From Bacteroidales bacterium (GTDB lineage Bacteria > Bacteroidota > Bacteroidia > Bacteroidales > UBA12077), in assembly GCA_036351015.1 (NCBI GenBank), contig JAZBOG010000013.1, positions 2,998 through 66,997 on the forward strand: a stretch of 64,000 bases of DNA, in the 5' to 3' direction. This document shows positions 15,637 to 30,834 of the stretch, one piece after another. Numbering within the stretch: the stretch's first letter is position 1; each line of letters opens with the position of its first letter. The notes beneath the pieces are model-generated. The model was not told the DNA's origin and made no database searches. It saw only the letters and a list, made by a program, of their open reading frames with translations. Both the position numbers and the translations under genes were made by a program.

Positions 15637-15692
15637 TGTGTTTAAATGAATTTTATATGGAAAATATTGCCTTAAAAATGAATAACTGGTTT

Positions 15693-15757: not shown

Positions 15758-15772
15758 TAAAAAATTATAGTT

Positions 15773-16465: not shown

Positions 16466-17196
16466 TGGATTTTTATAAACTTTTTATTTTACAACTTATC
16501 GGGCATATTCTGGCAGATTTCTTTTTTCAGAGTGATTTATGGTCCAGGCATAAAAGAAGGTATGGATTTCGATCAAAAATTATGTACTGGCATGTTTTGA
16601 TTGTATTTCTAACTTCTTATGTACTTTCTTTTCAGTGGAATTTTATTTGGGCATCAGGCCTTATTCTTTTTATACACCTGCTCGTTGATGCTTTAAAGCT
16701 TAATATAGGCAGAATAAAAATTGACAAATCAAATCCATTCAGGAATTTTACATTTTTTATCGACCAAATATTACATATACTAACCATCTGGTTTGTAGTT
16801 TATATTTTCTCAAAATATGCTACAATAAATCCTGTAATAAACATTTCTGTAGCAAATTCTACCTTAGTTATCGTACTCGCATATTTACTTTGCTTAAAAC
16901 CTACAAATATTCTTATCAGAGAGGTATTCTCCATATATCGAATAAAAATTAAGAAGCAACCTGATGAAGATCTGTTAAATGCCGGTAAACTCATTGGAAA
17001 TATCGAGCGCATTTTGACTTTAACGCTTCTTCTTATTGGCCAGTACGAAGCCATAGGTTTTATCATTGCCGGTAAGTCTATTTTACGTTACGAGGGAGTA
17101 AAAACATCCAAAACAGAATATGTGCTTATAGGTACATTGCTAAGTTTTGGAATCGCCATATTAATTGGAATAATAGTTACCAAAATAAATATATAG
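16465..17196 (+). CDS. DUF3307-like polytopic membrane protein
   Basis: The start overlaps the upstream stop (TAATG). The N-terminal HILADFFFQ and the later GKLIGNIERILTLTLL...AGKSILRY...EYVLIGTLLSF fit my memory of the DUF3307 pattern. It has about 6-7 hydrophobic segments and ends 9 nt before hsdM. Confidence 0.7.
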   Translation: MDFYKLFILQLIGHILADFFFQSDLWSRHKRRYGFRSKIMYWHVLIVFLTSYVLSFQWNFIWASGLILFIHLLVDALKLNIGRIKIDKSNPFRNFTFFIDQILHILTIWFVVYIFSKYATINPVINISVANSTLVIVLAYLLCLKPTNILIREVFSIYRIKIKKQPDEDLLNAGKLIGNIERILTLTLLLIGQYEAIGFIIAGKSILRYEGVKTSKTEYVLIGTLLSFGIAILIGIIVTKINI

Positions 17197-17205
17197 CCAA
17201 CATCC

Positions 17206-18795
17206 ATGTTACAAAATAATGCTCAAATAAAATCATTAATCGATAAGCTTTGGAATCAGTTCTGGAGTGGTGGTATATCCAATCCTTTAACAGCCATTGA
17301 ACAAATTACCTATTTATTGTTCATGAAACGTTTAGATGATCTGGATTCGAAACGTAAAGCGGATGCCGAATTTACAGGCGAAACCTATAAATCGAAATTT
17401 GTAGGAGAGTGGTTGCCCCCCGGAATGGAAGATAAAAAGGAAAATTATGTGGATAAAGACAGCCTGCGATGGAGCAATTTCAAGCATATGAAAGCCGAAG
17501 ATATGCTTCAGCATGTGCAACTAAAAGTGTTTCCTTTCCTGAAAACCTTGAATGGAGAAACATCACAGTTTACGAAGCACATAGCAAATGCCGTGTTTAT
17601 TATTCCTAAAGCAAGTTTACTGGTTGAAGCCATTAAAACCATCGAAGAGATTTTTATTGAGATGGATAAGGATGCCGAAAAAGGTGGACAGGCATTTCAG
17701 GATATACAGGGTGATGTGTACGAATACCTGTTGAGTGAAATAGCAGCGGCAGGTAAAAACGGGCAATTCCGAACTCCACGCCATATTATTAAATTAATGG
17801 CTGAATTGGTGCAACCCCAATTAGGGCAGCGTATTGCCGACCCAGCATGTGGCACAGGCGGTTTCTTATTGGGAGCATACCAGTACATTGTGACACAGCT
17901 AAATAAAGATAAAAGCAAGTTAAAACCTGACGAAGATGGTTTTTTCCGTAGCTCTGTGAGTGGAATGCTAACTGAAAAAGTAAAAGATATTCTTGACCAG
18001 AGTATTTTTGGCTATGATGTAGATACTACCATGGTTCGCTTAGGATTAATGAACCTGATGATGCATGGTTTTGAAGACCCTAACATTGATTATACCGATA
18101 CTTTAAGCAAAAGCTACAACGAAGAAAACACCTACGATATAGTGATGGCAAACCCGCCGTTTACAGGCAGTATTGATAAAGGCGATATTAACGAAAGCTT
18201 TAAAACTGCTACCACCAAAACCGAATTATTGTTTGTTGAGCGAATTTTTAACATGCTAAAAATAGGTGGAACAGCAGCCGTGGTTGTGCCACAAGGCGTT
18301 TTATTTGGCTCCGGCAAAGCATTCAAACAAGTTCGGCAATTAATTATAGAGCAAGCCGAATTAAAAGCAGTAATAGCGGTGCCAAGCGGAGTATTCAAAC
18401 CTTATGCAGGAGTAAGTACCGCTATATTAGTATTTACCAAAGGTGGTGAAACAAATGATGTTTGGTTTTACGATATGCAAAGCGATGGATACAGTTTAGA
18501 TGATAAACGAGCAAAGCTGGATAATAACGGTGATTTACAGGATATTGTTGTACAATTTAACAATAGAAATAGAAATAAAAAAGAAAACAGTAAAAACAAC
18601 AGCCGCAAAGCAAAACATTTCTTTGTGCCTAAAAAGGATATTGTAGATGAAGGCTATGATTTAAGCATATCCCGTTACAAAGAAGATAATTTTGAAGAAA
18701 TAGAATATGAATCTCCTATGAAAATTCTTGAAAAATTGGAAAAAATAGAGAATGAGATAACCCAGGAGTTTAATGTCATAAAGGAGATGTTTTAA
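17206..18795 (+). CDS. hsdM: Type I R-M N6-adenine DNA methyltransferase subunit
   Basis: It has the HsdM_N pattern (LWNQFWSGGISNPLTAIEQITYLLFMKRLDD), SAM motif I DPACGTGGFL and catalytic motif IV NPPF (VMANPPFTGS). Confidence 0.95.
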   Translation: MLQNNAQIKSLIDKLWNQFWSGGISNPLTAIEQITYLLFMKRLDDLDSKRKADAEFTGETYKSKFVGEWLPPGMEDKKENYVDKDSLRWSNFKHMKAEDMLQHVQLKVFPFLKTLNGETSQFTKHIANAVFIIPKASLLVEAIKTIEEIFIEMDKDAEKGGQAFQDIQGDVYEYLLSEIAAAGKNGQFRTPRHIIKLMAELVQPQLGQRIADPACGTGGFLLGAYQYIVTQLNKDKSKLKPDEDGFFRSSVSGMLTEKVKDILDQSIFGYDVDTTMVRLGLMNLMMHGFEDPNIDYTDTLSKSYNEENTYDIVMANPPFTGSIDKGDINESFKTATTKTELLFVERIFNMLKIGGTAAVVVPQGVLFGSGKAFKQVRQLIIEQAELKAVIAVPSGVFKPYAGVSTAILVFTKGGETNDVWFYDMQSDGYSLDDKRAKLDNNGDLQDIVVQFNNRNRNKKENSKNNSRKAKHFFVPKKDIVDEGYDLSISRYKEDNFEEIEYESPMKILEKLEKIENEITQEFNVIKEMF

Positions 18796-20046
18796 ATGAA
18801 GATTCTCATTCGAAAACTTGAAGAAATAGCAGATGTTATAGCTGGTCAGTCGCCACCTTCAGTAACTTATAATGAGAAAGGAGATGGTTTGCCATTTTTT
18901 CAAGGGAAAACTGATTTTGGAGAAAAGCATCCCACAATAAGGATTTGGTGTTCAGAACCTAAAAAAATTGCACTCCCAAACGATATTCTGATATCTGTTC
19001 GAGCACCTGTTGGTCCTGTGAATATTGCAAATAAGAAATCATGTATTGGAAGGGGTTTAAGTGCAATCAGAACTAAAGAAGGTAATAGCATAGATTTCTT
19101 ATTTTATTTTTTAAAATCAAATGAAAGATTAATTGCAAAAAATGCATCAGGCTCAACTTTTAGTGCAATAACTCAAAAGGATTTAAAAGAATTAAAAATA
19201 CCAATCCCTGAAAAACTTAAAGATCAAATTCACATAGCCAATGTATTATCCCGAGCAGAAACATTAATTACCAAACGCAAAGAAAGTATTCAGTTACTGG
19301 ATGAACTTCTGAAATCTACCTTTTTGGATATGTTTGGTGATCCGGTTAGAAATGAAAAAGGGTGGGAGAAAAAAGCTACTATTTCATATGCTGATTGTAT
19401 TGTTCCTGGAAGAGACAAACCAAAAAGTTTTACTGGAGATATTCCGTGGGTTACTACTGATGATCTAGAACATTTATCAACAACAATAAAGTCAAAAAAG
19501 GATATTGGACTTTTAAGAGATGAAATAAAGCAAGTAAAAGCAAGATTAATTCCTAAAGACAGTGTTCTGATGACTTGTGTGGGTGATTTAGGAGTTATAT
19601 CATTAGCTGGGCAAGATATGGTAGTAAATCAACAATTACATTCTTTTCAGTGTAAAGAAGATATTAACAATAAATTCTTAATGTTTGCATTGTCTTATCA
19701 GAAAAAATATATGTACAGAAAAGCTTCAAAAACGACTGTTCCTTACATGAATAAGACTATATGCAATAGCATTCCAGTAATTAAGCCGCCATTGGAATTA
19801 CAAAACAAATTTGCTCAAATAGTTGAAAAAGTAGAAAAAATCAAAACCAAATACCAGGAAGGCTTGCAAGAACTGGAAAACCTGTATGCTTCGTTGAGCC
19901 AAAAAGCTTTTTCATCTGCCGGAAATTTATTGAAGGCAGGTAAAGGTGAGTTGGATTTGAGTAAGATGGAAATAGAGCAGGAGAGATTGGATATAGCTGC
20001 GGAAGAAGGAGTGGGGTATGGGAAAAAGAGTCATCTAAAAAAGTAA
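18796..20046 (+). CDS. hsdS: Type I R-M specificity subunit (two target-recognition domains)
   Basis: The ATG directly abuts the hsdM stop. There are two TRD-like halves separated by the conserved helical spacer (IANVLSRAETLITKRKESIQLLDELLKSTFLDMFGDP). The C-terminal conserved helix is FAQIVEKVEKIK...LYASLSQKAF. Confidence 0.9.
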   Translation: MKILIRKLEEIADVIAGQSPPSVTYNEKGDGLPFFQGKTDFGEKHPTIRIWCSEPKKIALPNDILISVRAPVGPVNIANKKSCIGRGLSAIRTKEGNSIDFLFYFLKSNERLIAKNASGSTFSAITQKDLKELKIPIPEKLKDQIHIANVLSRAETLITKRKESIQLLDELLKSTFLDMFGDPVRNEKGWEKKATISYADCIVPGRDKPKSFTGDIPWVTTDDLEHLSTTIKSKKDIGLLRDEIKQVKARLIPKDSVLMTCVGDLGVISLAGQDMVVNQQLHSFQCKEDINNKFLMFALSYQKKYMYRKASKTTVPYMNKTICNSIPVIKPPLELQNKFAQIVEKVEKIKTKYQEGLQELENLYASLSQKAFSSAGNLLKAGKGELDLSKMEIEQERLDIAAEEGVGYGKKSHLKK

Positions 20047-20047
20047 A

Positions 20048-20070
20048 AGGCTGCCATTTCTGACAGCCCT
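20048..20070. terminator. Hairpin between convergent hsdS and a small minus-strand ORF
   Basis: GGCTGCCATTTCTGACAGCC forms an imperfect 8-bp stem followed by CTTTTATTT. Confidence 0.5.
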
Positions 20071-20075
20071 TTTAT

Positions 20076-20219
20076 TTAACCTACTTTTCTATACTCTGTG
20101 TTATCACATTTTGGACAAGGTGGTAGTGTATCACTATCATCATCCAGTATTACTATTTGAAAACACTTTGTACATTGATACCTGCCTTTTCCAGGCTTCT
20201 CTCCAGTTCTGTAAATCAT
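20076..20219 (-). CDS. Small zinc-ribbon protein (47 aa), absent from the ORF track
   Basis: I translated it by hand as MIYRTGEKPGKGRYQCTKCFQIVILDDDSDTLPPCPKCDNTEYRKVG. The CxxC...CxxC arrangement resembles FmdB-type zinc ribbons. Confidence 0.5.
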   Translation of the reverse strand: MIYRTGEKPGKGRYQCTKCFQIVILDDDSDTLPPCPKCDNTEYRKVG

Positions 20220-20248
20220 TTTTTTTTTAAGATTTTAAAAGTTTAACA

Positions 20249-20416
20249 TTATTTTTCTTTCCGTACACCCTTAAATGGGTCTTCATCATGTTTTACATCC
20301 ATAAACTTACCATCTGGACCACGTTTAATCCAATGTCCATTAGGATGCTTAAACTGACTACGATCACGAACAGCTCCAACCCGGTGATTGTCACCGTATG
20401 GTTTATTTCTCGCCAT
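20249..20416 (-). CDS. Small basic hypothetical protein (55 aa), absent from the ORF track
   Basis: I translated it by hand as MARNKPYGDNHRVGAVRDRSQFKHPNGHWIKRGPDGKFMDVKHDEDPFKGVRKEK. The composition is more protein-like than the antisense 70-aa track ORF at 20288-20500. Confidence 0.45.
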   Translation of the reverse strand: MARNKPYGDNHRVGAVRDRSQFKHPNGHWIKRGPDGKFMDVKHDEDPFKGVRKEK

Positions 20417-21171
20417 TTTAATAGATTTTTCTCATCTTCTACAACCAGTAGGAGAAGACTAACCACCAAGGTCTTTTCTGTTCTTTTGATTTTTAATTAA
20501 ACTTTTCTTAAATTTGACTTGCACATTCAAAATGAAAAATTAATTAAGGCCAGGTCAAATTTCCTTGTAAAACGCACCTGGCTTTACTATATACAAAAAT
20601 ACCGCTTAATCCCTTTATTTCCGAGAGGTACAAAGCAAAAGTTTTCCACAAGGCACTATTTTAACTGCACTATTATCAATTAGTTATAATTATTTGTGTT
20701 AATTTTTAATAATCTATAACAACAACAAAATCAATATTTTATGACTTTTCTTTAAAACAAGCAATTTAAAACCCTTTAATACTCTTTTTATCAAGATCTT
20801 ATAACATATATGTGTTGAAAACTTCCTGATCAATTCAAAATTAAAGAATCATGAAATAGTAATCTTACAGTTTAAACTTCCTAAACCCGCATTGTTTTTT
20901 TAGATAAGTTTTGTAGTAAAAGTGGCTTTTACAAAGAATTAGTAGCTTAATGCTTTGTTGATTCAGTCAAACATTTAAAATATCAAATTTAGTTAATGAG
21001 TAAATTTGAATTATTAAAGATAATAACGTCTTTAATAACAAATGCTAAATACTTGGATATTAAAAAATAAAGATATAATTTCATAATTCCTGCCGCCCAA
21101 TTAGGGCATACATAAGAACGAAATTTGGATTGGAACCGGAGTGTTAATTTATTAATTAATATAAATATATC

Positions 21172-23121
21172 ATGAAAGTTCTTACTAAATCAAGATTTAA
21201 ATTAGGACTAGAATGTCCAAACAAGCTATTTTATACACAAAAAAAGGAATATGCCAACACGAAGGAGTTAGATCCGTTTCTTGAAGCTTTAGCCCAAGGT
21301 GGTTTCCAAGTTGAAGAACTCGCAAGAATGCATTACCAAAATGGAATCTTAATTGAAGGTAATGATGGAGACTATGAATATCTATGGAATAGAACATTAG
21401 AGTTGCTGAAACAAGATGATGTTATAATCTATGAAGCAGCATTTTTATATAATGAATTGTTTGTTCGAACTGATATCTTGGTAAAAAAAGGAAATAATAT
21501 TGAATTAATTGAAGTAAAGGCAAAATCATTTGATCCGAATGATGATAATATATTCATTGGCAAAAGAGGAGGTATGGTAAGTAAATGGAAAGCATACTTA
21601 TTCGATGTGGCTTTTCAAAAATATGTCATTCAGCAATGTTTCCCAGAATGGAATATTAATTCATTCATAATGATGGCTGATAAAACAAAAAAAGCGAGTA
21701 TAAATGGTTTAAATCAACTTTTTAGAATAAGCAGTAAAACGGATCATAGAACAGGTATTATAAATAAGGCTAATTCAATAGAAGATACTGGAGATTCAGT
21801 TTTAGGAAGAAAAAATATAACTCAAATAGTATCTGAAATTGAATCTGATAAGCACAAATATCATGATAATTTAACATTTATTGAATCAATAAATCTATTT
21901 AAGGATTTATATCTTAAAGATGAATATTGCAGTTGGCCAGCATCTTTTGGAGCTTGCAAAAATTGTGAGTTTAAAAGTTCGGATGATACGCTTAAATCAG
22001 GTTTTAAGGAGTGCTTTAAAAAACAGTTTAATTGGAGTGAATATGACTTTAATAAACCTAATATTCTAGATATATATGATTTTCGAAAAGGACATAAATT
22101 ATTTGCTGAAGGTATATTCTTTAAGGATGAATTAACCGAAGAAAAAATTGATCTAAAAACCGATCCTAAAAAACTTACTAATTCTCATAGACAATGGTTA
22201 CAAATTGAAAAAGAAGTAAGAAATGATAATTCCTTTTATATAGATAAAGATGGACTAAAGGAAACTATGAATGAATGGACTTTTCCTTTACACTTCATAG
22301 ATTTTGAGACCAGTGCAGTTGCGCTGCCTTTTAATGAAGGTAGAAAGCCATATGAGCAAATTGCTTTTCAATTTTCTCACCATGTATATCACAAAGATGG
22401 AAAAATAGAACATGCTAATGAGTACATAAACAATCAACCTGGTGTTTTTCCAAATTTTGAATTTATTAGGGAATTAAAAAAAGCGTTGGGAAATGATAAT
22501 GGTACAGTTTTCAGGTACGCTGATCATGAAAACAGCATTCTTAATGCAATTTATTCTCAATTACTAGACTCGAATGAAAGTGATAAAGAAGAGTTAATGA
22601 ATTTTATTCAAGACATATCACATTCAACCAAAGGAAATGCGATAGAATGGGAAGGGGCAAGGGATATGGTGGACCTTTGTAAAGTTGAGAAATACTTTTA
22701 TTATAATCCTTTTACAAAAGGATCTAATTCAATCAAACAAGTATTACCGGCTTCATTGAGTTCGAGTAGTTATCTACAAGAAAAGTATTCAAAGCCTATT
22801 TCACAAATCAACTTAACTAGTAAAAATTTTAGTAGTGATCATATATGGTTAAAAATAGAAAATGGTGCAGTAGAAAATCCATATAAATTACTTCCACCCG
22901 TATTTAATGAATGGAGTGATGATCAAGTTGAAAATGTATTATCAGAAATTGAAGATATTGCTGATGGTGGTGCTGCTCTTACAGCTTACGGCAAGTTACA
23001 ATATACCGATATGGAGCAGGAAGAAATTGATGCAATTACATCTGCTTTATTAAAATATTGCGAATTAGACACATTAGCAATGGTAATGATATATGAACAT
23101 TTTAAAGAAATAACCGAATAA
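21172..23121 (+). CDS. DUF2779-like protein: Cas4/RecB-like PD-(D/E)XK nuclease domain fused to a DEDD (DnaQ-like) exonuclease-like domain
   Basis: RTDILVKKGNNIELIEVKAKS gives the D...ExK motif. The Cys set C15 ... CSWPASFGACKNCEF...KEC is arranged like a Cas4 Fe-S cluster. In the C-terminal half, HFIDFETS gives DxE, YADHENSILNAI is HN-like and CELDTLAMV supplies an Asp. Confidence 0.75.
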   Translation: MKVLTKSRFKLGLECPNKLFYTQKKEYANTKELDPFLEALAQGGFQVEELARMHYQNGILIEGNDGDYEYLWNRTLELLKQDDVIIYEAAFLYNELFVRTDILVKKGNNIELIEVKAKSFDPNDDNIFIGKRGGMVSKWKAYLFDVAFQKYVIQQCFPEWNINSFIMMADKTKKASINGLNQLFRISSKTDHRTGIINKANSIEDTGDSVLGRKNITQIVSEIESDKHKYHDNLTFIESINLFKDLYLKDEYCSWPASFGACKNCEFKSSDDTLKSGFKECFKKQFNWSEYDFNKPNILDIYDFRKGHKLFAEGIFFKDELTEEKIDLKTDPKKLTNSHRQWLQIEKEVRNDNSFYIDKDGLKETMNEWTFPLHFIDFETSAVALPFNEGRKPYEQIAFQFSHHVYHKDGKIEHANEYINNQPGVFPNFEFIRELKKALGNDNGTVFRYADHENSILNAIYSQLLDSNESDKEELMNFIQDISHSTKGNAIEWEGARDMVDLCKVEKYFYYNPFTKGSNSIKQVLPASLSSSSYLQEKYSKPISQINLTSKNFSSDHIWLKIENGAVENPYKLLPPVFNEWSDDQVENVLSEIEDIADGGAALTAYGKLQYTDMEQEEIDAITSALLKYCELDTLAMVMIYEHFKEITE

Positions 23122-23123
23122 TT

Positions 23124-24131
23124 ATGCCAAAAAATAAAGAAGCACTCAAAAGATATAGAATTATACACAATGTCTTAAGAAGGGGTGGGAAGCACAAATC
23201 AAGCAGAATAATGGAGATCTGTAATGATGCAGGAATACCAGTTAAAATAAGAACAATTCAAAAAGATTTAGAAGATTTAGCGGAAGACACTGAATTAGGT
23301 TTTTTTCTTCCAATAAAAAAAGATGAGAGTTCCAAAACCTACTATTATGAAGAAATACCTGATTATATATTTCCATCGTTAGAGTTAGAGCCTGGCGAAA
23401 TAAATGCATTACTTTTTTATGCAAAAACAATTAGCCAGTATAAAGATTATCCTTTATTTAATGAAATATCAAAAGCAGTTCAGAAAGTACTAGAAAACTC
23501 AAATATTGCCCCACATACTAGAGAGTTATTTGAAAAAGAGACATTACTAGAAACAGAAAAACACCCTTCAATTGGTGGCATTGAGCTTATTGCAGACATT
23601 TTAGAAGCCATTACAACCAAAAGGGTTATTCAAGTAGATTATCAAAGATTTGATGACTTTATACGCAAACATGAAGTCAAACCAATTTTACTGAAAGAAG
23701 ATAAAAAATTATGGTATATAATTGGTTATAGCTTAGATAAAAATTCAATAATTACACTTGCTTTAGATAGAATAATTGATGTAACTGTCACAGAAAAGAA
23801 ATTCAGGAAAATAGAATTCAATAGCACAGAATATTTTAAATATTCATTTGGAATTACGGTTTTAAATCATGAACCTATTGAAGTTGTAATCTCATTTAAT
23901 CCTGAACAAGGAAATTACTTAAAAACACTACCAATACACTCAACCCAAACTATCTTATCAGATACAGATAGGGAATTTGTAATTTCAGTTAAAGTAATTC
24001 CATCATATGAGTTTTTCTCTAAAATAAGTAGTTATGGTGATCAAGCAACCGTAATTTCTCCAGAAACTATCCGCGATTATTTTATTGAGTCTATTACCAA
24101 CTCCTTAAAAAACTACGAATCAATACTATAG
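23124..24131 (+). CDS. WYL-domain transcriptional regulator (wHTH-WYL-WCX; BrxR/CapW-like architecture)
   Basis: It has an N-terminal HTH (RYRIIHNVLRRGGKHKSSRIMEICNDAGIPVKIRTIQKDLEDL), a WYL core (KKLWYIIGYSLDKNSIITLALDRI) and a C-terminal extension. The start lies 3 nt after the upstream stop. Confidence 0.85.
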   Translation: MPKNKEALKRYRIIHNVLRRGGKHKSSRIMEICNDAGIPVKIRTIQKDLEDLAEDTELGFFLPIKKDESSKTYYYEEIPDYIFPSLELEPGEINALLFYAKTISQYKDYPLFNEISKAVQKVLENSNIAPHTRELFEKETLLETEKHPSIGGIELIADILEAITTKRVIQVDYQRFDDFIRKHEVKPILLKEDKKLWYIIGYSLDKNSIITLALDRIIDVTVTEKKFRKIEFNSTEYFKYSFGITVLNHEPIEVVISFNPEQGNYLKTLPIHSTQTILSDTDREFVISVKVIPSYEFFSKISSYGDQATVISPETIRDYFIESITNSLKNYESIL

Positions 24132-24163
24132 TAAAAGAAACGAAAAATATTTATGATTTATTT

Positions 24164-24203
24164 ACATGGCGCAAGTACACTGCGCCATGTCGTATTTTCT
24201 TTG
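24164..24203 (+). terminator. Perfect 10-bp GC-rich hairpin with T-rich tail between the WYL gene and the Ubl operon
   Basis: ACATGGCGCA-AGTACAC-TGCGCCATGT (24164-24190) is followed by CGTATTTTCTTTG. It could be a terminator, an operator or both. Confidence 0.55.
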
Positions 24204-24239
24204 TAATGTAAAATTAGGTTTAATTTAAATTTTAGGACA

Positions 24240-24521
24240 ATGGTAACTAAAGAAAACAAAAATGATGCCCCAGGGCAAAACAAAGAATTTACGATTTATG
24301 TAAATGGAACGCCAGAAACATGGCATAGTAAAGAAATCTCATTCAGCGAAGTGGTATCACTGGCTTTTGAAAAACCACCTTATGGTGTAAATACGGAATA
24401 TCAAGTAGTTTTTTCAGAAGCATTGGGTCCATTAAAGGAAGGAACTTTGGCTGAAGGTCAAACGGTGCATATTAAAAAGGAAGGGACGCAATTCGATGTT
24501 AGCGCAACTGATAAGTCATAA
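24240..24521 (+). CDS. Small beta-grasp, ubiquitin-like (multiubiquitin-domain-like) protein
   Basis: The 93-aa product reads EFTIYVNGTPETWHSKEISFSEVVSLAF...YQVVF...GTLAEGQTVHIKKEGTQFDV, which fits my memory of the prokaryotic multiubiquitin domain pattern. It ends ...SATDKS with no terminal Gly. Confidence 0.65.
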   Translation: MVTKENKNDAPGQNKEFTIYVNGTPETWHSKEISFSEVVSLAFEKPPYGVNTEYQVVFSEALGPLKEGTLAEGQTVHIKKEGTQFDVSATDKS

Positions 24522-25674
24522 TGATGACATAAAACGACTATGGGATGAAGGACTTGTAATGGAAGAAAGAAATAGCTTCCTTATTATTCATAGAGTACCA
24601 TACTTAAATTCCAAAAAGGAAATTAAGTATGGTTCCCTTGTTTCAAACCTTCAATTGAGTGGATTTATAACAAATAAAAATCCTTCTCATACAGTATATT
24701 TTGCAGGAGAAATTCCATGCAAATTAAATGGAAAACCTTTTTCAATTGTGAATAATAGTAAAGCTTGTGAAATTGCTAATGGCTTTAAAGTTGACCATTA
24801 TTTTTCAAGTCTCCCTAAACCACATGGATATAAGGACTACTATCATAAAATGATGACGTATATTAATATGATATCTGCTCCAGCTAAAGCGTTAGATTCA
24901 TCAGTTACCGAAAAAGGTAAACAAATTCTTCAAACAGATGCAGAATCAGTTTTTAACTATATGGATACCAACTCTAGTAAACCAGAATTAAGTTTATTCT
25001 CTGAGTTATATAAAAACCAGAAAATTGGAATCATTGGACTTGGAGGAACGGGGTCATATATCTTAGATTTAGTAAGCAAAGTTCCTGTAAAAGAGATTCA
25101 TATCTACGATATGGACTGGTATTATAATAATAATGCGTTTAGGTCTCCTGGTGCGGCATCTATTAAAGATCTTTTAATCCCTAAGAAAAAAGTGGATTAT
25201 TACAAGGAAATTTATTCTAAGATGCATAAAGGAATCTTTGCACATCCTGAGAATATTACTTCAACTAATATTAATGAACTATTGAATTACCACTTTATTT
25301 TTTTAAGTATTGATAAAGGTGATATTAAAAAGGAAATAATTCAGTTGCTAGAAGAAAATAAAATCCCTTTTATTGATGTTGGAATGGGAATTTATAACAA
25401 TAAAGGTGCATTGACAGGTTTAATAAGAGTTACTACGGGGACACCAGAAAAAACAGATCATATCTGGAATAAAGGATGTATATCCTTTAAAGAAGGTCTT
25501 GATAATGAATATGACTCTAATATTCAAATAGCTGAACTTAATTCATTAAATGCTGCACTGGCAGTTATAAAATGGAAGAAACTGTTGGGATACTATCATG
25601 ATCTAACAAAAGAACATAATATGTTTTATCGAATTAATTCAAATAAAATGTTAAATGAAGAAACTGAGACATGA
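24496..25674 (+). CDS. E2-like domain fused to ThiF/E1-type adenylyltransferase
   Basis: The C-terminal Rossmann domain has KIGIIGLGGTGSYILD (GxGGxG), IHIYDMD, FRSPG and DVGMG. The N-terminal ~150 aa carry SHTVYFAGEIPC (H65-x9-C75), spaced like HPN...C of UBC enzymes. The ATG at 24496 overlaps the Ubl ORF by 26 nt; the next in-frame Met is at 24559. Confidence 0.8.
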   Translation: MLAQLISHNDDIKRLWDEGLVMEERNSFLIIHRVPYLNSKKEIKYGSLVSNLQLSGFITNKNPSHTVYFAGEIPCKLNGKPFSIVNNSKACEIANGFKVDHYFSSLPKPHGYKDYYHKMMTYINMISAPAKALDSSVTEKGKQILQTDAESVFNYMDTNSSKPELSLFSELYKNQKIGIIGLGGTGSYILDLVSKVPVKEIHIYDMDWYYNNNAFRSPGAASIKDLLIPKKKVDYYKEIYSKMHKGIFAHPENITSTNINELLNYHFIFLSIDKGDIKKEIIQLLEENKIPFIDVGMGIYNNKGALTGLIRVTTGTPEKTDHIWNKGCISFKEGLDNEYDSNIQIAELNSLNAALAVIKWKKLLGYYHDLTKEHNMFYRINSNKMLNEETET

Positions 25675-26029
25675 GTTTGTAGAGTTTATTCCTAAGGAAT
25701 TAGAAGATAATGTAATCTATATTTCGATTCGTTTCAAAACAGTAGTGCACAAATGTGCTTGCGGGTGTGGAAATAAAACTGTTACTAGGTTATCTCCAAC
25801 AGATTGGAAATTTACTTTTGATGGCGATTCTGTTACGCTTTATCCTTCAATCGGAAACTGGGGGTTTCCATGCCAATCTCATTACTGGATAACTAATAAT
25901 AAAATAGAATGGGCTGAAAGTTGGTCTAATAAATGGATATCTAGTAACAGAGAAACAGCCAAAAAAGAAAAAAGGAAATATTTCAAGAAAAAGAAAAGAT
26001 GGAATTTTCTAAAATCTATATTATCATAA
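25655..26029 (+). CDS. Zinc-ribbon protein, DUF6527-like
   Basis: The 124-aa product has HKCACGCGNK ... FPCQSHYW (CxCxC...CxxH) and a Lys-rich tail. It overlaps the E1 stop by 20 nt. Confidence 0.65.
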   Translation: MKKLRHEFVEFIPKELEDNVIYISIRFKTVVHKCACGCGNKTVTRLSPTDWKFTFDGDSVTLYPSIGNWGFPCQSHYWITNNKIEWAESWSNKWISSNRETAKKEKRKYFKKKKRWNFLKSILS

Positions 26030-26033
26030 AGAA

Positions 26034-26060
26034 ATCGTGAAATATATCACGATTTTTTTT
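26034..26060 (+). terminator. Intrinsic terminator closing the Ubl-E2/E1-Zn-ribbon operon
   Basis: ATCGTGA-AATATA-TCACGAT is a perfect 7-bp stem followed by T7, and it starts 5 nt after the stop codon. Confidence 0.75.
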
Positions 26061-26145
26061 AATGTTATGACTTAGAATACAGTAATTTAATTTGTGTTTT
26101 GTATTCTTATTAGTAACTTTAAATAAAATACAAATATGCCTAGTT

Positions 26146-27609
26146 ATGTTTATTAGAAATTTATTCTTTCTATTATTTATAGTGGATATACTTATTATAT
26201 GGCTTTTTCCTGAAGGAACATTAAAGAGTATAACAATAGCAATAATTTCTGTTTTATTATGTGCTTCTGGTTATTCATTCAAAGATATTTTTGAGAAGAA
26301 GCTTAAACAAAAATCAATAAAAAGATTTCAGAATATTATTATAGAGAGATTCAATAATTACTTTTATTTTCAATTAGGATTTAGAATTAATACCAATTCA
26401 TTGAAATATGAAGAGAATGAAATTGAGATACTTCAAGAATCCATAAAAAATTGTCTTGGTGAAGATTCAAGTAAGATAAAAGTTAATTCACTATTATTAT
26501 GTTATCAATGTAAAAAATGGGATGAAACTAAGTCTCCTGAAGATTTTCAACAGATACAAATTCAATCTGAAAATTTGGGAATAAAATATGGAGAGATTAC
26601 GTCAGATGTGCATATGTTTTTGGAGTATTATTCAAAATTAATTCTTAAAAAGGAAAACACTGAAAATGATAAAGAAATTTTTGATCAATTTTCAGTAAAA
26701 CATTATAAAGATCTTCAGTTTTATAGTATTAAAGAAGAACTTTATCAGTCAAAGAACCTACATGATACTTTAGTCAAACTTATAAAAGATGGGAAACTAT
26801 CAACATACGGAATAAATTCAGATTCATTATACAAACTCCAAAAAGACTTACAAACAAAGTACTTAAAACAAAACACTTACTTAATCTTTACTAATAAAAT
26901 TCCAGAAAATGTAAGATCCTATCTAAAAAGTTTACCAGGATTTTCGGGAAGTCGTATTTGGTCAAAAAATGTACCTGAACATAGCAGTTTGTTTGGTGCA
27001 TACATCGTAAGACCACCTGAAATACATTCAATTGATGAGTTAATTGAAATAATTAAATTAAAAGCTGGTAAGCAGGATTCCCAAACCTTAATAAGGATAA
27101 TTCCGCTTGATTTCTTGCATAGTAAAATATATACAATCCCAGAGGATCAAAGTTTTACAACAAGAGGTTTGCAAGAGAGTTACGAAACATTAGAATGGTT
27201 TAGAACAGGTTATGTCATGCAAGATTCAGTAATATGGAATGAAATTGCAAAATCTAGTATAAGTCCAAATGAATTATTAAAAGTAATTCCTTTCAATATT
27301 TTTTGCCCAGGAATTATACCTGTTGAGCAGAGTTTTTTAATTAAACATTATGATACAATTAAAACAGAATTTAATATTGAAAAATTAGATGAATGGCGTA
27401 ATGTGGATGCAAGTTTAATGCGTGATTATATTTTAAATTTAGGAAAACCTGAATATTCAGAAGAACATTTTAATAATACACTTAAACTTAATAAAGATTC
27501 TAGTGATGACGATTTCAAAGAAGCGGTAAGGGTAAGGATGTTAGAACTTTGCGAACAAATAAAAGATAAATCAAATGATTTTTATAATTCTATGCAACAC
27601 CAAAACTAA
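26146..27609 (+). CDS. Membrane-anchored protein of unknown function (2 N-terminal TM segments + ~430-aa soluble region)
   Basis: The track ORF begins at a TTG (26092). The first ATG (26146) gives MFIRNLFFLLFIVDILIIWLF...ITIAIISVLLCASGY. I recognise no motif in the remainder. Confidence 0.55.
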   Translation: MFIRNLFFLLFIVDILIIWLFPEGTLKSITIAIISVLLCASGYSFKDIFEKKLKQKSIKRFQNIIIERFNNYFYFQLGFRINTNSLKYEENEIEILQESIKNCLGEDSSKIKVNSLLLCYQCKKWDETKSPEDFQQIQIQSENLGIKYGEITSDVHMFLEYYSKLILKKENTENDKEIFDQFSVKHYKDLQFYSIKEELYQSKNLHDTLVKLIKDGKLSTYGINSDSLYKLQKDLQTKYLKQNTYLIFTNKIPENVRSYLKSLPGFSGSRIWSKNVPEHSSLFGAYIVRPPEIHSIDELIEIIKLKAGKQDSQTLIRIIPLDFLHSKIYTIPEDQSFTTRGLQESYETLEWFRTGYVMQDSVIWNEIAKSSISPNELLKVIPFNIFCPGIIPVEQSFLIKHYDTIKTEFNIEKLDEWRNVDASLMRDYILNLGKPEYSEEHFNNTLKLNKDSSDDDFKEAVRVRMLELCEQIKDKSNDFYNSMQHQN

Positions 27610-27615
27610 TCACTC

Positions 27616-28701
27616 ATGAATAAAGAGATATTACAAAATCATATTAAGAACTTCCTAAATAAACTTAACAATGAACCAGAAACCTTAAAAAGCGGCCAAG
27701 TCGAAAGAGAAGAAAGAATTGCATATTATCAAAGCTGGACGAAGGATAAAATACTTATCATGACACCAGATGATTTGCTTGAATATTTAAGTAAATTATG
27801 GGCTATGCTTATATGGGGTAATAAGCAATATGCTGTGGATAAAATGATTTTAGATAATGAATTAGATCATTTAAGAAAGGAATTGGCAGAACTACTTTGG
27901 GGGGCAGAAAACATTGAAAAACGGTGGGATAGGGGGCGTAAAAATATTAAAGGGATGGGGCCTGCCATGCTAAGTGAGCTTTTATGTCATGTTCATCCTG
28001 ACGATCACATATTATGGAATAGAAGAGCTTTTGTTGGTTTTAATTATTTAGAAATTAATAATTTACCACGTTACAATTATCAACTAACAGGTAAAAAATA
28101 TAAGGAACTATCAATTATTGCCAAGGATATTGCAATTGAGATGAAAAAAGCAGGTGCAAAAGATTACACATTATTAGCAGTTGATTATTTCATTTGGGAA
28201 GAACTTCAAGTCGAAGATAATCTTACACAAATACACAAAAAGGTAAAGGATGAAAAACCTGTAGAAAAACTCACAAGCGAAGAATCTAAGTTTATTCATA
28301 ATGATGTGCGTGACGCAATAAGTGAAATTGGAGATTGGTTAGGTTTTAAATCTCATATTGAAAAGAAAGTAGCTGACGGTTCTGTTGTTGATGCAGTGTG
28401 GGAAGCCACGATTGGTAATATGGGGCGAGTAATGTATGTATTTGAGGTTCAGACAAAAGGCTCAATTGATAGCTTAATTTTAAATCTGTTAAAGGCACGA
28501 AATAATCCAGCAGTTCAAGGTGTAGTAGCTGTTTCAGATGCAAAACAATTAGAAAAAATCAAGAAACATGCTGCTGGTGTACCTGGTTTAGGTGAAATTC
28601 TAAAAGTATGGGACTATAACGAAGTTCTAAAAGCTCATGAGAGCTTGGAATTTGTTAATTCTACTATAAACAAGCTTAATTTAGTACCTGAAGGTTTTTG
28701 A
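27616..28701 (+). CDS. Hypothetical protein with C-terminal PD-(D/E)XK-like nuclease motif
   Basis: The C-terminus reads ISEIGDWLGF...VVDAVWEAT...VMYVFEVQTKGS, an E...D...ExQxK arrangement. The N-terminal helical region contains IKGMGPAMLSELLCHVHPDDHILWN, which looks HhH-like. The start lies 6 nt after the upstream stop. Confidence 0.55.
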   Translation: MNKEILQNHIKNFLNKLNNEPETLKSGQVEREERIAYYQSWTKDKILIMTPDDLLEYLSKLWAMLIWGNKQYAVDKMILDNELDHLRKELAELLWGAENIEKRWDRGRKNIKGMGPAMLSELLCHVHPDDHILWNRRAFVGFNYLEINNLPRYNYQLTGKKYKELSIIAKDIAIEMKKAGAKDYTLLAVDYFIWEELQVEDNLTQIHKKVKDEKPVEKLTSEESKFIHNDVRDAISEIGDWLGFKSHIEKKVADGSVVDAVWEATIGNMGRVMYVFEVQTKGSIDSLILNLLKARNNPAVQGVVAVSDAKQLEKIKKHAAGVPGLGEILKVWDYNEVLKAHESLEFVNSTINKLNLVPEGF

Positions 28702-28943
28702 AAATTATCAATATGCTAAAATTACATGAAGCGATTGCAGTTGTTTTATTAAATAAGCCCAACAGAACAGCATCAGAGCAAGAGATTGCAGATGAAATAA
28801 ACAAAAGAAATTTGTATCAACGTAGGGATGGTAATCCGGTTCCAGCATACCAAATAATGCAAAGAACTAAACTTGCTAAAGGTCTATATCATCATTTGTT
28901 TGATTATCAGTCAAAAGACAGAATAGTTTTAAAGAATTTATAA
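28698..28943 (+). CDS. Small winged-helix (HARE/Mrr_N-like) protein
   Basis: LHEAIAVVLLNKPNRTASEQEIADEINKRNLY...GNPVPAYQIMQR fits a wHTH. The track start is a TTG overlapping the upstream stop; an alternative ATG lies at 28713. Confidence 0.5.
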   Translation: MKIINMLKLHEAIAVVLLNKPNRTASEQEIADEINKRNLYQRRDGNPVPAYQIMQRTKLAKGLYHHLFDYQSKDRIVLKNL

Positions 28944-28971
28944 ATAATATGTTTAATTAAAATTTAATATT

Positions 28972-29163
28972 ATGAGTTACAATTCACCCGAATTACAAGA
29001 TTTAGGAGATAATAATAGAACTGGTAACACTTGCCATGTTGCTGGAAGATGGTGCTGCAAAGATCATCCTTCAGTTGAAAAATCTGTGCGTAAAGATGAG
29101 TTTTTTCCTAAATGTGATCATGCTGGCGGTCATGATACTAAATGGTTATATGTAAAATATTAA
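28972..29163 (+). CDS. Small Cys/His-rich hypothetical protein
   Basis: The 63-aa product carries TCHVAGRWCCKDHP...PKCDHAGGHD, a possible metal-binding set. Confidence 0.4.
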   Translation: MSYNSPELQDLGDNNRTGNTCHVAGRWCCKDHPSVEKSVRKDEFFPKCDHAGGHDTKWLYVKY

Positions 29164-29176
29164 AATTTTAAATATT

Positions 29177-29368
29177 ATGAAAAAGTTTGAATACAAAATC
29201 ATTTTTGTAAAAAAAGAACATCAAAATGGTTTGCAGGATGTTTTAAATGAAATTGGCAAAGATGGATTCGAATTAATTAACTTCAGAGAAAAGGTTTCTG
29301 GTTTTGATCCTGACTTTGGAGATATGACAGAAATTGAATTAATATTTAAAAGAGAATTGAATTCATAA
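29177..29368 (+). CDS. DUF4177-like small protein
   Basis: MKKFEYKIIFVKKE...LNEIGKDGFELINF fits the DUF4177 pattern as I remember it. Confidence 0.5.
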   Translation: MKKFEYKIIFVKKEHQNGLQDVLNEIGKDGFELINFREKVSGFDPDFGDMTEIELIFKRELNS

Positions 29369-29597
29369 TTAAAGTTAACTCTCTGAGAATTGAATATTTG
29401 AAAATAGTTTGGATATATGATCGTATAACAGAAAAATCAGAAATTAAAATTCGACATTTTAACTTACCATTTTAGACAATTTAACTTATCTGCCACACGG
29501 GAAAGAAAATTATGTTAATTATGGTTTGCAGCCCTAAACACAATTTTCTGAAGCAATGTCCTATAATTAATATTATGTTAAATAGAAAGATTTAAAA

Positions 29598-29630
29598 GAA
29601 AGGGGGAAATAATTAAATCTCCCCCCTTTG
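29598..29630. terminator. Hairpin downstream of the minus-strand TPR gene, at the right edge of the accessory block
   Basis: AAAGGGGGA-AATAATTAAA-TCTCCCCCCTTTG forms an imperfect G/C stem flanked by A/T runs. Confidence 0.5.
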
Positions 29631-29649
29631 CTTAAAATCCTTTAAAATC

Positions 29650-30834
29650 TTATTGATTCTGTTCGGCCATCTTCTCAGAGATCGCTTCGTATTTATCGTT
29701 CATCTTCAAACGATAGTATAATGTTCTTAACGTTGACATGATGCCCATATCGTTGGGTTGTAACTCATGCGCCTTTTCAATATACGGCAATGATTTTTCG
29801 AATTCAGCATCCGCTTTTTCTTTGGCTTCAAGATATTTCTTGTTATCGGTAATCTTGTTAGCCTCTTCGGTTAACGCAACCCCTTCGTTGAAATAAAGTA
29901 CCCCTAAGTTATAATAAGCATCAAAAAAGGTAGGATCAATTTCAATGGCCTGCTTATACATCTCTTTGGCTTTTTCTTTGTTTCCTGTCTTATCGTAAAG
30001 GTGGGCTTCCGCATTATAGAACTGTGGATTGTCAGGATCACCTTCACGGGCCACTTTCAGATATTTAAAGGCTTCGTCAGCATCTTCAGCTTCGAGCAGG
30101 TAATAATTGATTAAAGTCCCCAGGATCGATTGATTTCCGGGATATTTCTCAAAGCCTTTCTTCAGGGTTGCCACATACTGATCGTTATCCCCTTTATTTT
30201 TGTAACACTCGGCCATCAATGCATAGGTATCCCCTTCGCCATAACCATATTTGGCGGATTCCTGATAATATTCAATCGCTTTGTCATACTTTTCAACCCG
30301 CTGTGCGGTAAGGGCGGTGTTAAAAATAATGGCAGTATCAATTTCGCCTTCAAACACAGGCATCTCTTTCACTTCCAGGGATTTCTCAAAATATTTGAAA
30401 GCTTTTTCAAAGTCTTCTGCCTGGTAGGCTTCCACTCCTTTGTTCACAAACATAGATGACATGTTTAAAAATTTGGCATCAATGGGTCCCTGATACATGT
30501 TGCTTCCTTCCATGGTATAGGCTTTCTTGTAATTATCAAAAGCATCAAACAATGGATATTCAGTTATACTTTTAAATTCAGGATTATCACTTTTGGCAAT
30601 GGCTTCGTAGGTTAATCCCTTAACATAATACGTTTTTGCCCAGTCCCTGGTATCTTCTGCTTTTTCGGCAGCATTCAGGGCTTTGATGGCGGTATCTAAT
30701 TTAACACCTTCTTCGGCCCAACGCTGAGCATTGGAAACTAATGCTTTATTACCACCACAGCTGCTGGCTAGAATGGCAATGACAGAGACCAATAACATTG
30801 GATAAAATTTCTTTATACGCTTCATGGTTTTCAT
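29650..30834 (-). CDS. TPR-repeat lipoprotein
   Basis: It has a lipobox-like signal (LVSVIAILASSCGG) and multiple TPR-like repeats (AxxYxxKGxxYxAIxxFxKALEIDP-type). Confidence 0.8.
   Translation of the reverse strand: MKTMKRIKKFYPMLLVSVIAILASSCGGNKALVSNAQRWAEEGVKLDTAIKALNAAEKAEDTRDWAKTYYVKGLTYEAIAKSDNPEFKSITEYPLFDAFDNYKKAYTMEGSNMYQGPIDAKFLNMSSMFVNKGVEAYQAEDFEKAFKYFEKSLEVKEMPVFEGEIDTAIIFNTALTAQRVEKYDKAIEYYQESAKYGYGEGDTYALMAECYKNKGDNDQYVATLKKGFEKYPGNQSILGTLINYYLLEAEDADEAFKYLKVAREGDPDNPQFYNAEAHLYDKTGNKEKAKEMYKQAIEIDPTFFDAYYNLGVLYFNEGVALTEEANKITDNKKYLEAKEKADAEFEKSLPYIEKAHELQPNDMGIMSTLRTLYYRLKMNDKYEAISEKMAEQNQ

What the first reader, a model, noticed from the sequence alone, without database searches (positions are those of the whole stretch)
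24240..26061. Hairpin-bounded Ubl / E2-E1 fusion / Zn-ribbon (DUF6527-like) operon lacking a JAB peptidase
Three ORFs overlap by 26 nt and 20 nt. They sit between a 10-bp GC hairpin (24164-24190) and a perfect terminator (26034-26060). ORF1 (93 aa) has the pattern of a prokaryotic multiubiquitin-type beta-grasp domain. ORF2 (392 aa) carries an unmistakable ThiF/E1 Rossmann adenylation domain (GLGGTGS, YDMD, FRSPG). Ahead of that domain are ~150 aa with SHTVYFAGEIPC, where H65 and C75 are spaced like the HPN...Cys of UBC E2 enzymes. That makes ORF2 a candidate E2-E1 fusion. ORF3 (124 aa) has a CxCxC...CxxH metal-binding signature and a Lys-rich tail. Ubiquitin-like conjugation machinery in bacteria was predicted by comparative genomics (Iyer/Burroughs/Aravind). 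It has been shown to act in antiphage immunity in CBASS (Cap2/Cap3) and in Bil systems. This arrangement differs from those: a single short Ubl without a C-terminal Gly, a fused E2-E1, a small Zn-ribbon protein, no JAB or other recognisable deubiquitinase, and a WYL regulator immediately upstream. It may belong to the more diverged, poorly characterised class; if I remember correctly, a 'Bub'-type pathway using non-thioester chemistry has been reported. The location in a defence island next to a Type I R-M system and nuclease genes points to an immune role.
Basis: partly seen in the sequence, partly recalled or inferred. Interest (0 to 1): 0.8.

Follow-up and report, generated by a model that had tools for sequence, protein, structure and literature searches.

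The report
Type II Bub ubiquitin-like conjugation operon
This three-gene cluster is a clear new example of the recently described bacterial "Bub" ubiquitin-like protein-tagging system (Type II), with a DNA-damage-type WYL regulator in front of it; the kind is already known and its biological role is still unproven.

Summary
Three overlapping ORFs (24240-24521, 24496-25674, 25655-26029; overlaps 26 and 20 nt) lie between two real hairpins. They are a textbook Type II Bub (formerly "6E.2"/DUF6527) operon (Ye, Gong, Chambers and Corbett, bioRxiv 10.1101/2024.11.21.623953). BubA is a single beta-grasp Ubl, BubBD an E2-E1 fusion, and BubE a DUF6527 protein. A CapW/BrxR-like WYL-WCX regulator lies upstream.

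BubBD is 42% identical over 387 residues to the assayed E. coli ZDHYS365 BubBD. It keeps the E2 Ser (S104), the Arg (R216) and the crossover-loop Tyr (Y339), each invariant in 80/80 relatives. BubE keeps the C4 zinc site and the Ser65-His76 protease dyad.

- The E2 nucleophile is Ser104, not Cys75. Cys75 is replaced by His, Tyr or Phe in some relatives.
- The E1 nucleophile is a Tyr.
- The operon does not lack a deconjugating peptidase, because BubE is one.

The missing C-terminal Gly is the Type II norm (Ser in 63/65 relatives). The cassette co-occurs in about 79/80 genomes. An antiphage role is contextual only; none has been demonstrated for Bub. Verdict: new member of a known kind.

The parts
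23124..24131 (+). WYL-WCX transcription regulator (CapW/BrxR-like), same strand, immediately upstream of bubA
   Evidence: Pfam WYL 6.5e-11 and WCX 2.9e-08. PADLOC WYL 4.9e-29. Weak matches to solved WYL-domain regulators. A 46%-identical orthologue sits in the same position before a Bub operon in Brumimicrobium L002.
24164..24190 (.). Perfect palindrome ACATGGCGCA-N7-TGCGCCATGT between the WYL gene and bubA; candidate operator for the dimeric WYL repressor and/or terminator of the WYL transcript
   Evidence: Fold dG -16.6, z -4.2. Flagged terminator-like. Unique in the window. The core ATRGCGCA-N7-TGCGCCAT is conserved at the same position in L002 within otherwise AT-rich, unalignable DNA.
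24240..24521 (+). bubA: single beta-grasp ubiquitin-like protein (Ubl1), residues 1-12 disordered, C-terminus ...FDVSATDKS
   Evidence: Pfam Multi_ubiq 5.8e-14. Sequence match to the C-terminal beta-grasp of PDB 9cd2, sharing the same TDKS end. AF2 pLDDT 77.8; Foldseek best hit 9cd2, E 1.5e-7, TM 0.71-0.73. S93 is invariant in 33 homologues.
24496..24521 (+). 26-nt bubA/bubBD overlap (dual-coding; probable translational coupling)
   Evidence: Exactly 26 nt in 63/67 relatives from many phyla. ATG in 68/68; bubA stop TAG or TAA at +24..+26.
24496..25674 (+). bubBD: E2-E1 fusion. E2-like domain (DUF6791) covers residues ~10-158 with H65 and S104. The ThiF/E1 adenylation domain covers residues ~170-392 with G181-G186, D205/D207, R216 and crossover-loop Y339
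   Evidence: Pfam DUF6791 3.4e-48 plus ThiF. NCBIfam NF004805, 488 bits, full length. 42% identity to E. coli ZDHYS365 BubBD, E 2e-91. H65, S104, R216 and Y339 are 80/80. AF2 pLDDT 86.3; top Foldseek hits are Citrobacter BubCD E1 (9eav/9ea5), E ~5e-14.
25655..26029 (+). bubE: DUF6527 zinc-binding Ser-His protease (C34/C36/C38/C73 zinc site; S65/H76 dyad) with a basic C-terminal tail ending in a hydrophobic stretch
   Evidence: Pfam DUF6527 9.1e-27. 47% identity to E. coli BubE, E 3e-36. Cys, Ser and His positions conserved in 79-80/80. The tail has 13 K/R in 36 residues and ends RWNFLKSILS.
26028..26059 (+). Intrinsic-terminator-like hairpin plus T-run, beginning just before the bubE stop codon (26027-26029) with its core stem 2 nt after it
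   Evidence: dG -13.0, z -4.0, 0/200 shuffles as good. The core 9-bp stem at 26032-26055 was found by the scan.

Best explanation

Proposed mechanism, by homology to the characterised E. coli ZDHYS365 and Citrobacter systems:
1. The ThiF-type E1 half of a BubBD homodimer adenylates the C-terminal carboxylate of BubA (...TDKS), using the G181-G186 loop, D205/D207 and R216.
2. Tyr339 on the flexible crossover loop takes BubA as an oxyester.
3. BubA passes to Ser104 of the E2-like half (with His65 nearby), probably on the opposite protomer.
4. BubA is then attached to a lysine of an unknown target.
5. BubE, a zinc-stabilised Ser65-His76 protease with a basic/hydrophobic tail, removes BubA from conjugates and so limits the pathway.

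The WYL-WCX protein probably keeps the operon off until DNA damage or ssDNA appears, possibly through the conserved palindrome at 24164-24190.

Shown here: architecture, homology, residue conservation, folds of BubA and the E1 half, and co-occurrence. Inferred: all chemistry, the regulator's site and signal, the target, and any antiphage role.
For: - Gene order and domains match Type II Bub as defined in the paper.
- Identity to the experimentally tested E. coli proteins: BubBD 42% (E 2e-91), BubE 47% (E 3e-36), BubA beta-grasp 33% with an identical TDKS end.
- Catalytic positions S104, R216 and Y339 are invariant in 80/80 relatives; S104 and H65 are 149/149 in diverse representatives. Mutating the E. 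coli equivalents S106, R219 and Y342 abolishes product formation.
- BubE has the C4 site and the Ser-His dyad in 79-80/80. Citrobacter S92A and H102A lose protease activity.
- The BubA model matches PDB 9cd2. The BubBD model's best matches are the Citrobacter BubCD structures, and its loop at 336-339 is low-confidence, consistent with a mobile crossover loop.
- The cassette co-occurs with BubE in 79/80 loci and a BubA-type ORF in 63/67. PGAP annotates the same triad on 128 plasmids.
- WYL-WCX regulator. The paper finds HTH-WYL regulators at 8% of Bub operons.
Against: - No biochemistry was done on these proteins.
- The UBC-like fold of the N-terminal half could not be tested on its own. Profile comparison with Citrobacter BubB and with UBE2D2 gave no signal, and Foldseek hits were dominated by the E1 half.
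- The Lys described as invariant next to the E2 Ser (E. coli K108) is Leu106 here (Lys in 76/80). However, a Lys lies two residues on, the closest relative shows the same shift, and the K108 mutant stays active in vitro.
- The E. coli sequences were machine-read from a PDF with some letter transpositions, so the R and Y numbering is mapped by alignment and invariance, not by exact index.
- No phage protection has been shown for any Bub operon.
Confidence: 0.88

Rival explanations
1. A thioester-based E2-E1 system: His65...Cys75 act like the HPN...Cys of canonical UBC enzymes, and Cys75 carries the Ubl.
For: H65 is invariant and C75 is Cys in 78/80 close relatives, including E. coli BubBD. The 10-residue spacing equals the H75-C85 spacing of UBE2D2 (my own knowledge of that sequence). 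The preprint text held here does not report a mutant of this Cys.
Against: C75 is replaced by His, Tyr or Phe in 24/149 diverse representatives, whereas S104 is 149/149. E. coli S106A abolishes product formation. In the AF2 model, C75 lies 5 residues after strand 66-70 (near where the HPN loop would be), while S104 lies 11 residues before the long helix 115-133, the position expected for the E2 nucleophile (inference from secondary-structure order only).
Confidence: 0.05
2. A sulfur-carrier or cofactor/peptide-modification pathway (ThiS/ThiF, MoaD/MoeB, MccB or PaaA-like) rather than protein conjugation: the E1 only adenylates the small protein's C-terminus for sulfur transfer or cyclisation.
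For: The E1 half resembles ThiF, MccB and PaaA structurally and by sequence. There is no Gly-Gly end and no catalytic Cys.
Against: The best matches are Bub proteins, not ThiF or MoeB, and the NCBIfam ThiF/MoeB scores are far below their cut-offs. There are no sulfurtransferase/rhodanese or thiamine/molybdopterin genes nearby. Homologous E. coli and Citrobacter systems form protein-protein conjugates. The locus sits in a low-GC island with R-M genes.
Confidence: 0.03
3. A decayed or inactive copy: the K106L change and residence in a MAG island mean the operon is no longer functional.
For: L106 replaces a Lys present in 76/80 relatives.
Against: All three ORFs are intact and full-length against their family models. 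Every residue shown to be required is present. The closest relative shares the same S-S-[L/M]-P-K variant, suggesting a lineage-specific shift of the Lys rather than decay. The K108 mutant of the E. coli enzyme stays active. The precise 26-nt and 20-nt overlaps and the terminator are preserved.
Confidence: 0.04

Closest known systems
Type II Bub operon (6E.2), e.g. E. coli ZDHYS365 BubA/BubBD/BubE (Ye, Gong, Chambers and Corbett, bioRxiv 10.1101/2024.11.21.623953; PDB 9cd2 for BubA)
   Same: Same three genes in the same order, and no JAB. BubBD is 42% identical and BubE 47% identical. BubA ends in the same TDKS. The Ser, Tyr and Arg catalytic positions and the BubE dyad and zinc site are retained. 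It has the optional HTH-WYL regulator.
   Different: BubA here has one beta-grasp domain (93 aa) against three in E. coli; single-domain BubA is a common described variant. The Lys next to the E2 Ser is displaced by two residues (SSLPK against SNKP). The host is a Bacteroidales MAG. The operon is in a chromosomal low-GC island after a Type I R-M system.
Type I Bub operon (6E.1), Citrobacter sp. RHBSTW-00271 BubAB/BubCD/BubE (PDB 9ea4, 9ea5, 9eae, 9eav)
   Same: Same pathway logic: E1 crossover-loop Tyr, E2 Ser, and the BubE Ser-His protease. The E1 domain is the best structural match to the model (E ~5e-14).
   Different: Type I fuses the Ubl to the E2 and a JAB peptidase to the E1, and its BubA ends in Gly after JAB cleavage. 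Here the E2 is fused to the E1, there is no JAB, and BubA is made with a free C-terminal Ser.
Type II CBASS Cap2/Cap3 and Bil (BilABCD) systems
   Same: Bacterial E1/E2-type conjugation machinery in defence-island contexts. Cap2 is also an E2-E1 fusion.
   Different: Those systems use catalytic cysteines (thioesters) and JAB peptidases. Cap2 conjugates a CD-NTase, not a Ubl. PADLOC Cap2 (E1-E2) models match only the Rossmann segment 172-290, and weakly (best 6e-08). No CD-NTase or JAB gene is present.
CapW/BrxR wHTH-WYL-WCX repressors
   Same: WYL and WCX domains; located directly upstream of a defence-type operon; a palindrome in the downstream intergenic region.
   Different: The N-terminal wHTH was not detected by Pfam at E <= 0.1. 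Binding to the palindrome and the inducing signal are untested. The gene starts 3 nt after a DUF2779 gene and may be co-transcribed with it.

Membership tests
Type II Bub operon | Gene complement and order: Ubl (BubA), E2-E1 fusion (BubBD), DUF6527 (BubE); no JAB/JAMM peptidase | tested here: met
   ORFs and Pfam domains. No JAB in the operon or its neighbours. Definition taken.
Type II Bub operon | BubA is a beta-grasp (Multi_ubiq) protein homologous to solved Type II BubA | tested here: met
   PF14452 5.8e-14. The AF2 model matches 9cd2 at TM 0.71-0.73, rmsd 2.4 A.
Type II Bub operon | BubBD is homologous over its full length to an experimentally tested BubBD | tested here: met
   42% identity over 387 aa, E 2e-91, against E. 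coli ZDHYS365 BubBD. DUF6791 plus ThiF.
Type II Bub operon | Invariant E2 serine (E. coli S106) | tested here: met
   S104 aligns with S106. It is 80/80 and 149/149.
Type II Bub operon | Invariant histidine accompanying the E2 serine | tested here: met
   H65 is 80/80 and 149/149. That H65 is the paper's accompanying His is an inference from invariance, not from coordinates.
Type II Bub operon | Lysine accompanying the E2 serine (E. coli K108). The paper describes it as invariant, but its mutation does not abolish activity, so I treat it as accessory rather than defining | tested here: not met
   L106 here; Lys in 76/80 and 133/149. K108 lies two residues on, and the closest relative has SSMPK. 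The K108 mutant is active.
Type II Bub operon | E1 adenylation site (Gly-rich loop, Asp residues, Arg equivalent to R219) | tested here: met
   G183, G184, G186, D205, D207 and R216 are all 80/80. ThiF domain. The model matches BubCD, ThiF and UBA5.
Type II Bub operon | Invariant crossover-loop tyrosine (E. coli Y342) and no conserved Cys there | tested here: met
   Y339 is 80/80. It is the only conserved hydroxyl or thiol residue in 314-341. C328 is Cys in 3/80. The loop at 336-339 has low pLDDT.
Type II Bub operon | BubE: DUF6527 with a C4 zinc site and a Ser-His dyad | tested here: met
   PF20137 9e-27. C34/C36/C38/C73, S65 and H76 are 79-80/80. 47% identity to E. coli BubE.
Type II Bub operon | UBC-like fold of the BubB (E2) half | tested here: inconclusive
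   hhalign against Citrobacter BubB and UBE2D2 gave probability below 1%. The secondary-structure order of the model (helix, four strands, hairpin, Ser104, long helix) is compatible with a UBC-like fold but is not a fold test.
Type II Bub operon | ATP-dependent BubA conjugation through oxyester intermediates; BubE deconjugation | not testable with these tools
   This needs biochemistry. It is known only for the E. coli and Citrobacter homologues.
Type II CBASS (Cap2/Cap3) or Bil | Catalytic Cys in E1 and E2; JAB peptidase; CD-NTase (CBASS) or separate E1/E2 (Bil) | tested here: not met
   No JAB or CD-NTase. PADLOC E1-E2 hits are weak and confined to residues 172-290. The only conserved Cys is not universal.
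CapW/BrxR regulator | wHTH-WYL-WCX architecture next to a defence-type operon | tested here: inconclusive
   WYL and WCX are found. The wHTH was not detected by the profile libraries. DNA binding is untested. A palindrome is conserved in one orthologous locus.

The most novel reading that the evidence does not exclude
These are the strictly fixed 26-nt bubA/bubBD overlap, the invariant C-terminal Ser of Type II BubA (instead of Gly), and the near-invariant His65/Cys75 pair in the E2 half. Possible meanings include obligatory translational coupling or co-translational loading of BubA onto BubBD, a Ser-specific adenylation/deconjugation code, or a second (Cys/His) site in the E2 domain. Separately, the WYL-Bub module may act as a second-line response triggered by DNA fragments made by the adjacent Type I R-M system.
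Probability: 0.12. Interest if true: 0.5.

Novelty: new member of a known kind. Interest (0 to 1): 0.25.

Why it matters
Bub is a recently described, mechanistically unusual pathway in which ubiquitin-like conjugation proceeds without any catalytic cysteine. Its targets and biological role are still unknown. This locus adds a compact Bacteroidales example: a single-domain Ubl, a WYL regulator with a candidate operator, and residence in an R-M island. It could serve as another test case. It does not change what is known about the system. The comparative by-products (a fixed 26-nt overlap and an invariant C-terminal Ser in Type II BubA) are small but testable additions.

Tried and rejected
- PADLOC models: nothing for BubA or BubE, and only weak Cap2 Rossmann hits for BubBD. 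PADLOC-DB 2.0 predates Bub.
- Profile-profile comparison of the E2 half with Citrobacter BubB and human UBE2D2: no signal.
- PDB profile search with the full BubBD alignment: only E1-half matches.
- Look-up of the exact source contig: not on record.
- tblastn of the window's DUF2779 protein and of the downstream 505-, 361- and 81-aa proteins against 80 Bub loci: 0 hits, so they are not part of the conserved unit.
- Type I R-M adjacency as a general rule: rejected, at only 4/80 loci.
- Phage genomes: no BubBD homologue in 50,697 records.
- Search for the peer-reviewed version of the Bub paper: not in the library.
- Programmed frameshift in the 26-nt overlap making a BubA-BubBD fusion: considered and rejected. 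There is no slippery motif, and E. coli BubA works as a separate protein (sequence inspection).
Full report
**1. Observation**

They overlap by 26 and 20 nt.

The upstream element 24164-24190 is a perfect 10-bp palindrome with a 7-nt loop (dG -16.6 kcal/mol, z = -4.2). The downstream hairpin at 26028-26059 is followed by a T-run (dG -13.0, z = -4.0). In both cases 0 of 200 shuffles folded as well.

Pfam assigns the following:
- ORF1: Multi_ubiq (5.8e-14).
- ORF2: DUF6791 (3.4e-48, residues 10-158) plus ThiF (4.7e-11).
- ORF3: DUF6527 (9.1e-27).
- The upstream gene 23124-24131: WYL plus WCX.

NCBIfam NF004805 covers ORF2 end to end (488 bits), which confirms the ATG at 24496. HsdR, HsdM and HsdS are confirmed upstream.

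**2. What it is**

The literature search found that this gene set has been described and named (Ye, Gong, Chambers and Corbett, bioRxiv 10.1101/2024.11.21.623953).
- "6E/DUF6527" operons are now called Bub (bacterial ubiquitination-like).
- Type II Bub consists of BubA (Ubl), BubBD (E2-E1 fusion) and BubE (DUF6527). It typically has no JAB peptidase.
- 8% of 544 catalogued Bub operons carry an HTH-WYL (CapW/BrxR-like) regulator.
- The current Pfam name of PF20137 is already "BubE".

I compared the window proteins with the E. coli ZDHYS365 Type II proteins that were assayed in that paper. Their sequences come from supplementary Table S2 and were machine-read.
- BubBD is 42% identical over 387 residues (E 2e-91).
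- BubE is 47% identical (E 3e-36).

**3. Residue-level membership**

I used 80 BubBD-encoding loci from reference genomes of many phyla.
- H65, S104, R216 and Y339 are invariant in 80/80.
- S104 aligns exactly with E. coli S106.
- R216 and Y339 align with the Arg and with the crossover-loop position of E. coli R219 and Y342. The OCR text has local transpositions, so this mapping rests on alignment plus invariance.
- Mutating S106, R219 or Y342 abolishes product formation in vitro.
- In 149 more diverse representatives of the E2 domain, H65 and S104 remain 149/149. It is the only conserved Cys in the protein.
- The Lys next to the Ser (E. coli K108) is Leu106 here (Lys in 76/80). The closest relative has Met at this position, and both have a Lys two residues further on (SSLPK and SSMPK). 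The E. coli K108 mutant is still active. I treat this as a lineage variant.
- BubE keeps C34/C36/C38/C73 (zinc site) and S65/H76 (protease dyad) at 79-80/80. It also has the basic tail with a hydrophobic end that the paper describes for BubE extensions.

**4. Structure**

The AF2 model of BubBD has mean pLDDT 86.3. Confidence is low only at the E2-E1 linker (145-149) and at 336-339, the crossover loop that carries Y339. Its best PDB matches are the Citrobacter BubCD structures (E ~5e-14), followed by PaaA, MccB, ThiF and UBA5.

The BubA model has pLDDT 77.8, with residues 1-12 disordered. It matches the solved Type II BubA 9cd2 (TM 0.71-0.73, rmsd 2.4 A), then other bacterial multi-ubiquitin proteins and ubiquitin-fold domains.

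The UBC-like fold of the E2 half could not be tested on its own. Profile comparisons with Citrobacter BubB and with UBE2D2 gave no signal. The order of secondary-structure elements is compatible with a UBC-like fold, with S104 lying 11 residues before the long helix 115-133. The E2 assignment therefore rests on homology to the assayed E. coli protein.

**5. Co-occurrence and geometry**
- BubE follows BubBD in 79/80 loci, and BubA is detectable by tblastn in 67/80.
- By ORF geometry, an upstream ORF stops exactly 26 nt inside BubBD in 63/67 loci, and its last residue is Ser in 63/65, most often as TDKS.
- The overlap is conserved at the nucleotide level. The ATG is present in 68/68, and the bubA stop is TAG or TAA at +24..+26.
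- The BubBD/BubE junction overlaps by 4 nt in 31 loci and by 20 nt in 12 loci, the latter including this window.
- The preprint text and supplement held here mention neither the Ser end nor the fixed overlap.

**6. Context**

The operon lies in a ~18-kb low-GC island (~30% GC against ~45% in the flanks, roughly 12000-30000). In order, the island holds:
- HsdR, two inserted genes, then HsdM and HsdS;
- a DUF2779 protein whose stop is 3 nt before the WYL gene;
- the WYL gene and the Bub operon;
- three genes with no family match.

None of these neighbours recurs next to Bub in the 80 loci. The one exception is a 46%-identical WYL gene in Brumimicrobium (L002), which sits in the same position. 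There, the palindrome core ATRGCGCA-N7-TGCGCCAT is conserved between the WYL stop and bubA, within otherwise AT-rich DNA. It occurs only once in the window. This favours an operator for the dimeric WYL repressor, but a terminator role is not excluded.

Type I R-M genes flank Bub in only 4/80 loci. However, the closest relative (74% identity) also sits directly after an HsdR, beside a different HTH-domain gene, and a Tunicatimonas plasmid copy lies beside a methyltransferase-helicase pair and umuDC. The triad is annotated on 128 plasmid records and is absent from 50,697 phage records.

**7. Function**

The conjugation and deconjugation chemistry is inferred from the homologues. The antiphage role is contextual only. 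The authors report no phage protection by any Bub operon, and a 2026 paper repeats this.

**8. Verdict**

This is a well-formed Type II Bub operon with a CapW/BrxR-like regulator, that is, a new member of a known kind. Three of its claims do not hold: the cysteine-based E2 site, the suggestion that a deubiquitinase is missing, and the suggestion that the arrangement differs from described systems.

Noticed in passing
window 24496-24521; loci L001-L080 at the BubBD start: The bubA stop lies exactly 26 nt inside bubBD in 63/67 relatives from many phyla. The overlap is conserved at the nucleotide level (consensus TTCAATGTCACAGCAACTGATAAGTCGTAG). Both reading frames are constrained: the BubA tail ...NVTATDKS and the BubBD N-terminus MSxQLI. 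The Bub preprint text held here does not mention this.
   Followed up: partly
window 24513-24518 (BubA K92-S93); A2 alignment: Type II BubA proteins end in an invariant Ser (TDKS in 39 of 65; Ser in 63/65) instead of the Gly typical of ubiquitin-like proteins and of Type I BubA.
   Followed up: partly
window 24811-24813 (BubBD L106): The Lys next to the E2 Ser (Lys in 76/80 relatives; E. coli K108) is Leu here and Met in the closest relative L001. Both have a Lys two residues downstream (SSLPK and SSMPK), which looks like a lineage-specific shift.
   Followed up: yes
window 24718-24720 (BubBD C75) with H65: The motif H-x5-G-x2-P-C is almost universal in Type II E2 domains. H65 is 149/149 and C75 is 125/149 (otherwise His, Tyr or Phe). 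The role of this Cys is not addressed in the text I could read. Cys/His interchange would suit a metal or structural site better than a nucleophile.
   Followed up: partly
window 24164-24190; L002 5675-5697: A GC-rich palindrome between the WYL gene and bubA is conserved in sequence in Brumimicrobium mesophilum, whose WYL protein is 46% identical. It is a candidate WYL operator.
   Followed up: partly
window ~12000-30000: An ~18-kb island of ~30% GC lies in a ~45% GC background, between a PCMT methyltransferase gene and the TPR/gyrA genes. There is no tRNA at its edges. It carries the Type I R-M system, DUF2779, WYL-Bub and unknown genes.
   Followed up: partly
window 15773-17196: Two genes are inserted between hsdR and hsdM: a 230-aa protein with no family match and a DUF3307 protein.
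   Followed up: no
window 21172-23121: A 649-aa DUF2779 protein ends 3 nt before the WYL gene start, so the regulator may be co-transcribed with it. It is not found next to Bub in any of the 80 related loci.
   Followed up: partly
window 26092-28943: Three same-strand genes lie after the Bub terminator: a ~505-aa protein with a hydrophobic N-terminus, a 361-aa protein and an 81-aa protein. None has a Pfam, NCBIfam or PADLOC match. The 361-aa protein has 'hypothetical' homologues on plasmids of Monoglobus, Methanothermobacter and haloarchaea. This may be an uncharacterised island cargo module.
   Followed up: partly
L082 6674-7423 and L083 2959-3708: The closest BubBD relative (74% identity) has an HTH_3/HTH_19-SocA_Panacea gene in the place of the WYL regulator, and lies directly after a Type I hsdR. 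The gene in front of the same Bub cassette therefore differs between close relatives.
   Followed up: no
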